Assembly: GCF_003018255.1 (NCBI RefSeq)
Contig: NZ_CP027440.1
Strand: one strand, 5' to 3'
DNA length: 64,000 bases
Origin: Escherichia coli
GTDB taxonomy: Bacteria; Pseudomonadota; Gammaproteobacteria; Enterobacterales; Enterobacteriaceae
The position numbers were made by a program. Of this stretch, positions 60,001 to 63,000 are shown piece by piece. Each line of letters begins with the position of its first letter. Position 1 is the first letter of the stretch.

Positions 60001-63000
60001 GCTGTTAAGTCTTGGTGGTGCAATTACTGCATATAAAGCGTATGTCATGGCGGAAACCACACAGCTGGTGACCGACACCAAAGCCTTTACCGACGCGATT
60101 AAAGCAGGCGATATCGAAAAAGCGAAAGCACTGTATGCGCCGACGCGCCAGCACTATGAGCGCATTGAACCGATTGCTGAACTGTTCTCCGATCTGGATG
60201 GCAGCATTGACGCCCGTGAAGATGATTACGAGCAAAAAGCCGCCGATCCGAAATTCACCGGTTTCCACCGTCTGGAAAAAGCATTGTTTGGCGATAACAC
60301 CACCAAAGGGATGGATAAGTATGCCGACCAGCTTTATACCGATGTGATCGATTTGCAAAAACGCATCAGTGAACTGGCTTTCCCTCCTTCAAAAGTGGTC
60401 GGCGGTGCAGCCGGACTGATTGAGGAAGTGGCGGCCAGCAAAATCAGCGGTGAAGAAGATCGCTACAGCCACACCGATCTGTGGGATTTCCAGGCTAACG
60501 TTGAAGGCTCGCAGAAAATTGTCGATCTGCTGCGTCCACAACTACAAAAAGTGAATCCGGAACTGTTGGCAAAAGTCGATGCCAACTTCATAAAGGTCGA
60601 TACCATTCTGGCGAAATACCGTACTAAAGACGGTTTTGAAAATTACGACAAACTGACCGATGCTGACCGGAATGCACTGAAAGGACCGATTACTGCGCTG
60701 GCGGAAGATCTGGCGCAACTTCGCGGTGTGCTGGGGCTGGACTAAGCGTTATGCAGTATGAAGATGAAAACGGCGTGAATGAACCGTCACGCCGACGTTT
60801 ACTGAAAGGGATTGGTGCGCTGGCGCTGGCGGGAAGTTGTCCGGTCGCTCATGCACAAAAAACGCAAAGTGCGCCGGGTACGCTTTCACCGGATGCACGC
60901 AATGAGAAACAGCCGTTTTATGGTGAGCATCAGGCAGGGATCCTGACGCCACAACAGGCTGCAATGATGCTGGTGGCGTTTGATGTGCTTGCCAGCGATA
61001 AAGCCGATCTTGAACGGTTGTTTCGCTTGTTGACTCAGCGTTTTGCTTTTCTGACTCAGGGCGGAGCGGCACCAGAAACGCCAAATCCGCGCCTGCCACC
61101 ACTCGATTCCGGCATTCTTGGCGGCTACATTGCGCCCGATAATCTCACCATAACGTTATCGGTGGGCCACTCATTGTTTGATGAGCGCTTTGGCCTTGCG
61201 CCACAGATGCCGAAAAAGTTGCAGAAGATGACGCGTTTCCCCAACGACTCGCTGGATGCGGCGTTATGTCATGGTGATGTGTTGCTACAAATTTGCGCCA
61301 ACACCCAGGACACGGTGATCCATGCGCTGCGCGATATCATCAAACACACGCCGGATTTGCTCAGCGTGCGCTGGAAGCGGGAAGGGTTTATTTCCGACCA
61401 CGCGGCGCGTAGTAAAGGTAAAGAGACACCGATTAATTTGCTGGGTTTCAAAGACGGCACTGCCAATCCCGATAGCCAGAATGCGAAGTTGATGCAAAAA
61501 GTGGTGTGGGTGACGGCAGATCAGCAGGAGCCTGCGTGGACAATCGGTGGTAGCTACCAGGCGGTGCGGTTGATTCAGTTTCGGGTGGAATTTTGGGACA
61601 GAACGCCGCTGAAAGAACAGCAGACGATATTTGGGCGTGATAAGCAAACCGGCGCGCCGCTGGGAATGCAGCATGAGCATGATGTGCCTGATTACGCCAG
61701 CGATCCGGAGGGGAAGGTGATCGCGCTGGACAGCCATATCCGGCTGGCGAATCCCCGCACGCCAGAGAGTGAGTCAAGTCTGATGCTGCGTCGTGGCTAC
61801 AGTTATTCGTTGGGCGTCACCAATTCCGGGCAACTCGATATGGGGCTACTGTTTGTCTGCTACCAACACGATCTGGAAAAGGGCTTCCTGACAGTACAAA
61901 AAAGGTTGAATGGAGAGGCGCTGGAGGAATATGTCAAACCTATCGGTGGCGGCTATTTCTTTGCGCTGCCGGGTGTGAAGGACGCGAACGATTATCTCGG
62001 AAGCGCATTATTGCGGGTTTAATGTTTTTAGGCGGATAAGGCGTTTACGCCGCACCAGGCGTTCGTGCGCTGATGCGACGCTTGCGCGTCTTATCATGCC
62101 TACAATCGGTGCGGGTTCGGTAGGCCGGATAAGGCGTTCACGCCGCATCCGGCAAGCTTTTACCAGTACTGCGAATCCTGCTGAAAGCACACAGCTTTTT
62201 TATCACTGTCATCACTTTGTCATCTTTCCAGTAGAAACTAATGTCACTGAAATGGTGTTTTATGGTTAAATATAAGTGAATATATTGTTGCAATGAATGC
62301 GAGATCTGGTGTAATTATTAAGTAGCAGCGGAAGTTCCCGGCAGTGATAGTCAGTCACTATGGAGATCGCGGATGGTAACGTCCTGTACTGGACAATGTT
62401 TTGTTAAGCAAGGCTCCACCACTCGCGGAGATTTCTCCTCCGGTAGCAACTTCGTCACTCTGTATTTTTCTCACTTCCTCTCTTTACTCGTGTTACCGAC
62501 GCCGCAAACGGTGTGCGTAGCCGTTTTTCGGCATTTTATCCAAAAGCAAACTATGGCTTACAAGGAAGCCAACCCTCTGATGTTCGTGCGCATAATCGCG
62601 CTGCCAACGGCGCGTGTGATGAATACAAACAACTCAAGGTGCTCTCCATGGGAAGACAAAAAGCAGTGATCAAAGCTCGTCGCGAGGCAAAACGTGTGCT
62701 GAGACGGGATTCGCGCAGCCATAAGCAGCGTGAAGAAGAATCGGTCACCTCGCTTGTGCAAATGAGCGGCGTAGAAGCCATTGGTATGGCCCGCGATAGT
62801 CGCGATACCTCGCCCATCCTCGCGCGAAATGAAGCGCAATTGCACTATCTGAAGGCTATTGAGAGTAAGCAGCTGATATTCGCCACGGGCGAAGCCGGGT
62901 GCGGAAAAACCTGGATCAGCGCAGCAAAAGCGGCAGAGGCCCTGATACATAAGGATGTCGACAGGATTATCGTCACCCGTCCAGTTCTGCAAGCCGATGA

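What the first reader, a model, noticed from the sequence alone, without database searches (positions are those of the whole stretch)
62373..62669. Frame discontinuity upstream of the PhoH ATPase core
The PhoH frame is open only back to GTG 62513, because an in-frame TAG sits at 62444..62446. A different frame (62373..62669, MVTSCTGQCF...) overlaps it and starts about 150 nt downstream of the Pho box. I recall E. coli PhoH as a protein of about 354 aa, and 62373..63436 is 1064 nt, one short of a 354-codon gene plus stop. This suggests either a 1-bp indel here relative to the reference or a true start at ATG 62648 behind a long leader.
Basis: partly seen in the sequence, partly recalled or inferred. 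Interest (0 to 1): 0.35.

Follow-up and report, generated by a model that had tools for sequence, protein, structure and literature searches.

The report
Translated, frame-switching leader before phoH
The apparent frameshift is a common natural allele, not damage: PhoH starts at ATG 62648, and the 275 bases before it are a conserved, folded leader whose reading frame is almost always kept open while its peptide sequence drifts freely, joined to PhoH in K-12 but out of frame here.

Summary
ATG 62373 opens a 98-codon ORF that ends at TGA 62667-62669. The PhoH frame is blocked upstream by TAG 62444-62446. MG1655 has one more base, which gives its annotated 354-aa phoH.

It is not a single indel. 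All 24 differences from MG1655 lie between 62395 and 62514, mostly in a roughly 95-nt divergent block with several indels. About 1964 of 5417 complete E. coli genomes carry the window-type leader and about 3417 carry the K-12 type. NCBI's annotation pipeline starts phoH at the ATG equivalent to 62648 (262 aa) in all eight pipeline-annotated E. coli records I inspected, of both types.

Across 85 Enterobacteriaceae and E. coli sequences, the upstream ribosome-binding site and ATG are conserved. The ORF from that ATG is either fused to PhoH (54), ends 19 nt after the PhoH ATG (26), or ends 26 nt before it (5). The frame in use has no premature stops; unused frames carry 2.7-7.2. Leader dN/dS is 0.6-0.9, against 0.03 for the core. 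Three hairpins show compensatory changes. No Rfam family matches.

I infer that ribosome transit through the leader is what selection maintains, through coupling to the PhoH start and protection from Rho. This mechanism is untested.

The parts
62207..62224 (+). Pho box (PhoB binding site) of the phosphate-starvation promoter, TGTCATCACTTTGTCATC
   Evidence: Read from the sequence. It differs by one base from the MG1655 ChIP-seq site TGTCATCACTCTGTCATC centred at 1084845 (PMC10294691).
62259..62286 (+). Constitutive sigma-70 promoter hexamers, TTTATG-16-TATATT; both known promoters lie upstream of ATG 62373
   Evidence: Shimada 2014 (PMC3946193) lists TTTATA-16-TATATT for phoH in the efeB-phoH spacer. 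The window has the same element with one change in the -35 hexamer. The consensus scan did not flag it.
62362..62375 (+). Leader ribosome-binding site: GGAG, 7-nt spacer, ATG 62373
   Evidence: The motif GGAGATCGCGrATGGT was found, allowing up to 4 mismatches, in 85 of the 86 sequences first examined and in 5 more E. coli. The sequence without it has only 149 nt of upstream DNA held.
62373..62669 (+). Leader ORF, 98 codons plus TGA; out of frame with PhoH and overlapping its first 22 nt
   Evidence: No stops in the frame in use, dN/dS 0.59-0.93, no Pfam or NCBIfam match.
62381..62394 (+). Hairpin Ha, GUCC / GGAC
   Evidence: RNAalifold on 82 sequences, 99-100% paired and nearly invariant.
62395..62489 (+). 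Dimorphic divergent block. It holds 22 of the 24 differences from MG1655 and carries the net -1 nt; the other two are single substitutions at 62505 and 62514
   Evidence: A compensated indel pair at 62395/62402 turns GQCFVKQ into GHVLDNQ. The frame-breaking difference lies in 62446-62489. The two sub-blocks recombine independently (L090).
62424..62443 (+). Hairpin Hb, CGCGGA / UCCGG, with a variable loop
   Evidence: 96-100% paired over the window-formed pairs 62424-62443. The adjacent pair 62423/62444 is 88% paired, shows GC 53 / AU 16, and is U-U in the window.
62408..62528 (+). C-rich, G-poor, pyrimidine-rich tract (resembles a Rho loading site)
   Evidence: GC skew is -0.40 +/- 0.06 and -0.29 +/- 0.07, with 63% pyrimidine, in all 85 sequences, even though the sequence itself is the most variable part of the leader.
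62444..62446 (+). TAG that closes the PhoH frame upstream (also TAA 62405-62407)
62501..62532 (+). Hairpin H1 (outer GCCG/CGGC, inner CGGU/GCCG). Its internal loop holds the T5 run 62524-62528, whose T4/T5 difference switches the frame in other lineages
   Evidence: All 5 outer pairs and 2 of 4 inner pairs have compensatory changes.
62554..62571 (+). Hairpin H2, UGGCUU-ACAAGG-AAGCCA; essentially invariant
   Evidence: 99-100% paired with no variation, so there is no covariation evidence either way.
62597..62614 (+). Hairpin H3, CGCGCUG-CCAA-CGGCGCG
   Evidence: Pair types are CG 37 / UG 28 / UA 17 and CG 59 / UA 17. Loop length and sequence vary.
62636..62650 (+). PhoH core ribosome-binding site: AAGGTG, 6-nt spacer, ATG 62648
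   Evidence: Nearly invariant in 82 sequences. The single-sequence fold pairs 62633-62639 with 62646-62652. Ribo-RET detects an in-frame internal start in K-12 phoH, coordinate not stated in the held text (10.1101/520783).
62648..63436 (+). phoH core coding sequence, 262 aa, intact
   Evidence: NCBIfam NF007827 scores 509.8 bits (cut-off 380) over residues 9-261. Pfam PF02562 covers residues 57-261. It is 92-100% identical across 80 loci from residue 1. dN/dS is 0.024-0.040.

Best explanation
The window carries an intact phoH locus in one of two common natural configurations. SHOWN: the conserved PhoH ATPase is the 262-aa product of ATG 62648, which has its own AAGGTG ribosome-binding site. 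The 275 nt before it are a leader that begins at a conserved GGAG + ATG (62373). In 80 of the 85 cross-species and E. coli sequences analysed together, the ORF from that ATG runs uninterrupted up to or past the PhoH start. It is either in frame, giving a 352-356-aa fusion as in MG1655, or in the other open frame, giving a separate 97-98-aa ORF that stops 19 nt inside phoH, as here. In 5 genomes it stops 26 nt before the PhoH start. Lineages have switched between these states at least 7 times through 1-nt indels at different positions. The peptide evolves almost neutrally, while several RNA hairpins and a C-rich tract are conserved at the nucleotide level. INFERRED: selection acts on ribosome transit through the leader rather than on the peptide. 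Ribosomes that start at 62373 keep Rho off the C-rich tract, which prevents premature termination. They also melt the leader hairpins and the small helix that pairs the core ribosome-binding site with its ATG. They then deliver ribosomes to ATG 62648, by termination at UGA 62667 followed by re-initiation in this allele, or by read-through plus internal initiation in fused alleles. This window should therefore make a 98-aa leader peptide of no intrinsic function and a 262-aa PhoH, and not the 354-aa form annotated in MG1655.
For: Allele frequency and annotation: 1964 window-type against about 3417 K-12-type genomes; 262-aa CDS in both types. Conserved upstream start and ORF continuity: (54 fused, 26 overlapping, 5 short). 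Stops per frame: (0 in the frame in use against 2.7-7.2 in unused frames). One search shows that the alternative frame contains stops within -125..-1 in 37 of 54 fused loci but in none of the overlap loci, so its openness is not a by-product of nucleotide conservation. Lack of peptide constraint: (diversity at codon positions 1/2/3 is 0.004/0.005/0.129 in the core, against 0.249/0.212/0.224 and 0.112/0.119/0.141 in the leader). One search gives dN/dS 0.59-0.93 against 0.024-0.040, and leader dS is below core dS. RNA structure: (95.2% of cells paired against 27-55% with slid partners; 47 compensatory cells against 4-10; 0 of 500 shuffles reach the observed value; many G-U pairs, which favours the + strand RNA). 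C-rich tract. Repeated switching: (Fitch minimum of 7 changes). Searches place the indels: T4/T5 at 62524-62528, and a second -1 in 62446-62489. Core-frame stops as close as -42 in Salmonella diarizonae show that PhoH must start at the core ATG there. Ribo-RET internal start in K-12 phoH. From memory, not verified here: Kim et al. 1993 (J Bacteriol 175:1316) reported a 39-kDa PhoH in maxicells, which would mean the upstream ATG is used in K-12.
Against: There is no direct evidence here for translation of the leader ORF in a window-type strain, for coupling, or for Rho involvement. These are inferences from evolutionary pattern and composition. The single-sequence fold of 62495-62690 is no more stable than shuffles (z = -0.49). 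The helix over the core start is short and invariant, so covariation cannot test it. One E. coli genome (EEC_W5, L086) has a 44-codon leader ORF that stops 143 nt before the core ATG. Early termination can therefore exist, unless it is an assembly error. Fused-lineage dN/dS of 0.59-0.75 leaves room for weak peptide-level constraint. The sequences are phylogenetically related, so counts of loci overstate the number of independent observations.
Confidence: 0.6

Rival explanations
1. The 92-residue extension is a genuine but fast-evolving, probably disordered, N-terminal domain of PhoH in fused lineages. In out-of-frame lineages such as this window it has simply been lost, and the 98-codon ORF is a decaying relic with no role.
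For: 54 of 85 sequences keep the fusion, with length changes in multiples of 3: 270, 273, 276, 279 and 282 nt. dN/dS in some fused groups is below 1, at 0.59-0.75. MG1655 curators keep the 354-aa form.
Against: Out-of-frame lineages are old and diverse (Salmonella, many Citrobacter, E. albertii). Every one of them keeps 97-98 codons free of stops, while the abandoned PhoH frame has gained about 4 stops. A relic should decay in the same way. There is no codon periodicity in the fused group. The conserved residues coincide with the hairpin arms.
Confidence: 0.2
2. Programmed -1 ribosomal frameshifting restores a long PhoH isoform from the out-of-frame allele.
For: The leader frame is -1 relative to PhoH. 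A near-slippery C_AAA_AAG lies at 62657-62663, followed one codon later by the leader stop codon.
Against: There is no canonical X_XXY_YYZ heptamer in the leader frame between 62447 and 62666. The only candidate lies inside the PhoH coding sequence, where MGRQKAV is constrained anyway. It is lost (GAC AGA AAG, read from the WEDRKQ translation) in the out-of-frame E. cloacae L060. The frame switches lie at different positions in different lineages.
Confidence: 0.03
3. The discontinuity is a sequencing or assembly error, or phoH is a pseudogene in this strain.
For: It amounts to a net 1-nt length difference from the reference. One truly aberrant 1-nt deletion was seen in a shotgun-derived chromosome (L086).
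Against: The identical 148 nt occur in strain 200164, and about 1964 complete genomes carry the same allele. Escherichia sp. E1V33 carries it too (L009). The difference is a multi-indel block, not a homopolymer slip. The core ORF is intact, scores 509.8 bits against the PhoH equivalog model, and is under strong purifying selection.
Confidence: 0.01
4. PhoH in this allele starts at GTG 62513 (307 aa), the first start codon in the open PhoH frame.
For: The mechanical ORF list gives 62513..63436.
Against: There is no Shine-Dalgarno-like sequence upstream of it, and the GTG lies inside hairpin H1. In the T4-type out-of-frame lineages the PhoH frame has a stop at -129, downstream of this position. 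There is no codon periodicity between 62528 and 62647. The family model begins at core residue 9.
Confidence: 0.03

Closest known systems
E. coli K-12 MG1655 phoH (b1020, NP_415539.1), curated as 354 aa
   Same: Same locus (efeB-phoH-pgaD), same Pho box, same upstream ATG and ribosome-binding site. The sequence is identical from 62515 to the end of the aligned stretch at 62540, and the 262-aa core is nearly the same.
   Different: MG1655 has 276 nt rather than 275 between the two ATGs, so its leader ORF is fused to PhoH. In the window the two are separate, overlapping ORFs. On the core-gene tree the K-12 fusion looks like a secondary re-fusion (T4 to T5) within a clade that was ancestrally out of frame.
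Upstream ORFs translationally coupled to the main gene, such as the iraD leader ORF repressed through CsrA (PMC5574718) and uof-fur (recalled, not checked here)
   Same: An upstream ORF with its own ribosome-binding site ends next to or over the main start codon, so main-gene translation depends on upstream translation. The peptide sequence is unimportant.
   Different: This ORF is far longer, at 84-98 codons against roughly 30 or fewer. It can also exist as an in-frame fusion, and it contains conserved hairpins. Coupling is inferred here, not demonstrated.
N-terminal isoform pairs made by in-frame internal initiation (Ribo-RET class: arcB, speA, phoH; 10.1101/520783)
   Same: In K-12-type alleles the core ATG is an internal in-frame start with locally raised synonymous-site conservation, as that paper reports.
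   Different: In the window the two starts are in different frames, so there is no isoform pair. The raised synonymous conservation is explained here by RNA hairpins and the core ribosome-binding site.
Leader-ORF-dependent Rho attenuators (tnaC-tnaA, mgtA and corA leaders; recalled from general knowledge)
   Same: A translated leader ORF lies over a C-rich, G-poor tract, and loss of leader translation would expose the RNA to Rho.
   Different: Those leaders sense a specific signal through specific codons or arrest peptides. No conserved codon or peptide feature was found here, and Rho dependence is untested.

Membership tests
PhoH (phosphate starvation-inducible ATPase; NCBIfam NF007827, Pfam PF02562) | Whole-protein score above the curated cut-off, with full-length coverage of the model | tested here: met
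   The 262-aa product of 62648-63433 scores 509.8 bits against a cut-off of 380, covering model positions 1-253 of 253. PF02562 scores 256.4 bits against a cut-off of 27.
PhoH (phosphate starvation-inducible ATPase; NCBIfam NF007827, Pfam PF02562) | P-loop NTPase motifs (Walker A GxxxxGKT, Walker B hhhhDE) | tested here: met
   GEAGCGKT and VVILDEAQ are present in the translation.
PhoH (phosphate starvation-inducible ATPase; NCBIfam NF007827, Pfam PF02562) | The N-terminal 92-residue extension is part of the family | tested here: not met
   The model starts at core residue 9, which is residue 101 of the MG1655 protein. The extension and the 98-aa leader peptide hit no Pfam or NCBIfam model.
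PhoH (phosphate starvation-inducible ATPase; NCBIfam NF007827, Pfam PF02562) | PhoB-dependent promoter with a Pho box | tested here: met
   17 of 18 positions match the ChIP-seq-defined site. Binding itself was not tested.
Translationally coupled upstream/leader ORF | Conserved ribosome-binding site and start codon upstream of the main gene | tested here: met
   GGAG-N7-ATG was found, allowing up to 4 mismatches in the 16-nt motif, in 90 of 91 sequences.
Translationally coupled upstream/leader ORF | The ORF ends within re-initiation range of the main start codon | tested here: met
   The stop lies 19 nt after the core ATG in the window and 25 other loci, and 26 nt before it in 5.
Translationally coupled upstream/leader ORF | ORF kept open by selection without peptide conservation | tested here: met
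   0 stops in the frame in use against 2.7-7.2 in unused frames. dN/dS is 0.59-0.93. One exception was seen (L086).
Translationally coupled upstream/leader ORF | Main-gene expression depends on upstream translation | not testable with these tools
   Needs reporter fusions carrying start-codon and stop-codon mutations.
In-frame N-terminal isoform pair (internal initiation) | Upstream and internal starts share one reading frame | tested here: not met
   62648 - 62373 = 275, which is 2 mod 3. TAG 62444 blocks the PhoH frame. The feature is met in MG1655 (276 nt).
Programmed -1 ribosomal frameshift (dnaX type) | Slippery heptamer X_XXY_YYZ in the upstream frame within the overlap zone | tested here: not met
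   No canonical heptamer was found, only C_AAA_AAG at 62657-62663.
Leader-ORF-controlled Rho attenuator | C-rich, G-poor tract within or after the leader ORF | tested here: met
   GC skew of -0.40 and -0.29 with 63% pyrimidine, conserved in 85 sequences. This is composition only.
Leader-ORF-controlled Rho attenuator | Rho-dependent 3' ends in the leader and bicyclomycin-sensitive read-through | not testable with these tools
   No paper in the held library links phoH with Rho or bicyclomycin.
Any curated RNA family (Rfam 15) | Covariance-model match in the leader | tested here: not met
   No match at E <= 1 between 62200 and 62650 on either strand.

The most novel reading that the evidence does not exclude
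The phoH leader is an undescribed cis-regulatory RNA of Enterobacteriaceae. It is roughly 275 nt long, has at least five conserved hairpins and a conserved C-rich tract that resembles a Rho loading site, and must be traversed by ribosomes for PhoH to be made. The peptide frame is therefore interchangeable, and lineages toggle between a PhoH fusion and a separate overlapping ORF. It would act as a sensor of translation status, or as a protein-bound switch, controlling a Pho-regulon ATPase whose function is still unknown.
Probability: 0.3. Interest if true: 0.6.

Novelty: new member of a known kind. Interest (0 to 1): 0.45.

Why it matters
For annotation, the 354-aa PhoH of the MG1655 reference is a lineage-specific fusion. 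About a third of E. coli genomes, and also Salmonella, Citrobacter and E. albertii, cannot make it. The conserved protein is the 262-aa form. Studies that use the 354-aa sequence for structure prediction, tagging, knock-outs or proteomics should take this into account.

For biology, an ORF kept open in two interchangeable frames over the depth of a bacterial family, with near-neutral peptide evolution and covarying hairpins, is an unusually clean natural case of selection for translation itself. It points to post-transcriptional control of phoH, a Pho-regulon gene whose role has been unclear since it was described in 1993 (recalled). It also yields simple, decisive experiments.

Tried and rejected
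1. Retrieving Kim et al. 1993 for the promoter map and protein size failed. Thomason 2015 transcription-start tables were not held either. Statements about the 39-kDa product therefore rest on memory.
2. Literature searches found nothing linking phoH with start-codon reannotation, Rho or bicyclomycin, CsrA, or leader and upstream ORFs.
3. I considered a CsrA site in hairpin H2, because the loop ACAAGGA resembles a CsrA target. H2 has 3 mismatches to the SELEX consensus, and matches at <=2 mismatches in the window occur at chance level: 10 found against 10.8 expected. I dropped it to a passing remark.
4. The consensus promoter scan found no sigma-70 promoter inside the leader, so there is no support for an internal promoter that would bypass the leader.
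5. Rfam gave no family in the leader.
6. A protein search with the 92-aa MG1655 extension returned only fragments and separately called 97-98-aa ORFs, none with informative names.
7. The first count of structure pairs had helix H3 mis-registered by one column. It was repeated correctly.
8. The single-sequence folding energy is not significant (z = -0.49). The case for structure rests on covariation only.
9. Programmed frameshifting, a GTG 62513 start, a pseudogene and a sequencing error were each considered and rejected, as set out under the rival explanations.
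Full report
**1. What is in the window**

Positions 62000-64000 hold the end of efeB (to 62022), REP-type repeats, phoH on the + strand and pgaD on the - strand.

- ATG 62373, preceded by GGAG at 62362-62365, opens a 98-codon ORF that ends at TGA 62667-62669.
- The PhoH frame has stops at 62405-62407 and 62444-62446, so it is open only from GTG 62513.
- 62373..63436 is 1064 nt.
- The curated MG1655 record annotates phoH (b1020) as 1065 nt and 354 aa, starting at the homologous ATG.

**2. The discontinuity is a common natural allele**

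Alignment to K-12, 536, E-1246 and Res13, plus a pairwise alignment to MG1655, show where the differences lie.

- All 24 differences from MG1655 fall between 62395 and 62514. Twenty-two of them are in a roughly 95-nt block, 62395-62489.
- That block contains several indels with a net loss of 1 nt.
- The flanks are essentially identical.

A 148-nt query over the block splits 5417 complete E. coli genomes into two groups. 1964 match at >=90% identity and 3453 match at 80-90%. The reciprocal MG1655 query gives 3417 and 2000. About 36% of E. coli genomes therefore carry the window type.

Carriers include E24377A (its match length is the window-type one), ATCC 25922 (its match is colinear with the window) and O103:H2. 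The allele is also present in Escherichia sp. E1V33 (L009).

NCBI's pipeline annotates a 789-nt, 262-aa phoH that starts at the ATG equivalent to 62648 in all eight pipeline-annotated E. coli records inspected, of both allele types, including a K-12 strain.

**3. The PhoH protein is the 262-aa product**

- The 262-aa product scores 509.8 bits against the NCBIfam PhoH equivalog (cut-off 380). That model begins at core residue 9, which is residue 101 of the MG1655 protein.
- Pfam PhoH covers residues 57-261.
- Eighty genomes from across Enterobacteriaceae match from residue 1 at 92-100% identity.
- Nucleotide diversity at codon positions 1/2/3 is 0.004/0.005/0.129 in the first 20 core codons. 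This periodicity is absent from the 40 codons upstream.
- Core dN/dS is 0.024-0.040.
- Ribo-RET in K-12 lists phoH among genes with a conserved in-frame internal start (10.1101/520783).

**4. The leader is not inert spacer**

The motif GGAG-N7-ATG upstream is present, allowing up to 4 mismatches in the 16-nt search pattern, in 85 of the 86 sequences first examined. The ORF from that ATG takes one of three forms:

| Configuration | Sequences | Examples |
|---|---|---|
| Fused to PhoH (352-356 aa) | 54 | K-12, 536, Enterobacter, Klebsiella, Kosakonia, Buttiauxella |
| 97-98 codons, ending 19 nt inside phoH | 26 | the window, E. albertii, E. whittamii, Citrobacter, Salmonella arizonae and diarizonae |
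| 84 codons, ending 26 nt before phoH | 5 | Kluyvera, Pseudescherichia |

- The distance between the two ATGs is never 1 mod 3.
- The frame in use has no premature stop between the two ATGs in the 80 fused and overlap sequences. The five short ORFs have a single stop, at -26. Unused frames carry 2.7-7.2 stops.
- The alternative frame has stops within -125..-1 in 37 of 54 fused loci but in none of the loci that use it. Its openness is therefore not a side effect of nucleotide conservation.
- Leader dN/dS is 0.59-0.93 in both configurations, and leader dS is lower than core dS.
- A compensated indel pair at 62395/62402 turns GQCFVKQ into GHVLDNQ. This again indicates selection on frame continuity, not on residues.

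**5. History of the frame switches**

On a neighbour-joining tree of the core gene, parsimony needs at least 7 changes of configuration.

- The Escherichia-Salmonella-Citrobacter clade is ancestrally out of frame, through a T4 run at the position of 62524-62528.
- K-12-type E. coli re-fused the frames (T5).
- The window type keeps T5 but has a second -1 within 62446-62489.
- The two sub-blocks recombine independently. L090 combines a window-like 5' part with a K-12-like 3' part.
- In some Salmonella and Citrobacter the abandoned PhoH frame now has stops as close as -42, so PhoH there can only start at the core ATG.
- One E. coli genome (EEC_W5, L086) has a further 1-nt deletion that gives a 44-codon leader ORF. 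This was the only exception seen, and it may be an assembly error.

**6. RNA-level features**

RNAalifold on 21 and then 82 sequences finds five hairpins:

| Hairpin | Window coordinates |
|---|---|
| Ha | 62381-62394 |
| Hb | 62424-62443 |
| H1 | 62501-62532 |
| H2 | 62554-62571 |
| H3 | 62597-62614 |

- For H1, H2 and H3 together, 95.2% of cells pair, against 27-55% when the 3' partners are slid.
- There are 47 compensatory cells, against 4-10 in the slid controls.
- None of 500 shuffles reaches the observed values.
- H2 is invariant, so it is uninformative for covariation.
- Frequent G-U pairs point to the + strand RNA.
- The single-sequence folding energy is not exceptional (z = -0.49).
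- The stretch from -240 to -120 relative to the core ATG is C-rich and G-poor (skew -0.40 and -0.29) and 63% pyrimidine in all 85 sequences, although it is the most variable stretch in sequence.
- No Rfam family matches the leader.
- Both reported promoters lie upstream of ATG 62373, so the known transcripts should carry the whole leader. These are the Pho box at 62207-62224 and the constitutive TTTATG-16-TATATT at 62259-62286.

**7. Interpretation**

- Shown: the allele is natural and common; PhoH starts at 62648; the leader ORF is kept open in either of two frames without peptide constraint; hairpins H1, H3 and, less strongly, Hb are supported by covariation.
- Inferred: ribosome transit is the selected property. 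It would protect the C-rich tract from Rho, open the leader structure, and deliver ribosomes to the core start. In this allele that would occur by termination at UGA 62667 and re-initiation 19 nt upstream.

I put 0.6 on this overall reading and less on the Rho component specifically. The main rival is that the extension is a weakly constrained protein domain and the out-of-frame ORF is a relic (0.2). It does not explain why the out-of-frame ORF stays open in old, diverged lineages. Programmed frameshifting, a GTG 62513 start, a pseudogene and a sequencing error are each unlikely.

**8. Novelty**

The annotation discrepancy (354 against 262 aa) and the internal start in K-12 are already on record. 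I found no paper in the held library that connects phoH with a leader ORF, translational coupling, Rho or CsrA. The two-frame pattern and the covarying hairpins therefore appear undescribed. Mechanistically they belong to the known class of translated regulatory leaders. I rate the finding as a new member of a known kind, of moderate interest.

Noticed in passing
window 63238-63431 (- strand): Rfam RF02855 (Ysr251, Yersinia antisense sRNA) matches at 190.8 bits (gathering score 100), antisense to the 3' end of the phoH coding sequence. The match may only reflect conservation of the phoH sequence from which the family was built.
   Followed up: no
window 62030-62196: REP-type repeats between efeB and the Pho box match naRNA4 (RF02564) at 53.5 and 39.5 bits, below the gathering score of 59.5.
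   Followed up: no
window 62554-62571: The invariant hairpin UGGCUU-ACAAGG-AAGCCA presents a GGA at the loop-stem junction, reminiscent of a CsrA site. It has 3 mismatches to the SELEX consensus, and looser matches occur at chance level in the window. On the - strand the same hairpin is followed by a T-rich run and was flagged as terminator-like.
   Followed up: partly
window 62207-62224 and 62259-62264: Compared with MG1655, the Pho box has C to T at its tenth base, and the -35 hexamer of the constitutive promoter reads TTTATG instead of TTTATA. The effect on expression is unknown.
   Followed up: no
window 63454-63479: A stem-loop AGCCCGG-GCGAA-CCGGGCT followed by TTGTTTT lies between the convergent phoH and pgaD genes. 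It looks like an intrinsic, possibly bidirectional, terminator that the consensus scan missed.
   Followed up: no
L086 (NZ_CM130020.1, E. coli EEC_W5) 321-596: A K-12-type leader with one extra 1-nt deletion (SSGSHLV becomes SSVVISS) gives a 44-codon leader ORF that stops 143 nt before phoH. It was the only sequence seen that breaks the open-to-the-core rule, and it may be a real mutation or an assembly error.
   Followed up: partly
L013 (CACSKA010000011.1) versus L014: A contig labelled Chryseobacterium sp. 18061 carries a phoH locus with an identical tblastn score to, and a leader peptide differing at only a few residues from, that of Citrobacter sp. 18056 from the same study. The record is probably mislabelled or contaminated.
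   Followed up: no
window 62373-62520 versus E. coli genomes: About 36 genomes are at least 90% identical to neither the window-type nor the K-12-type leader. The phoH region also matches on 7 plasmid records. Neither group was examined.
   Followed up: no
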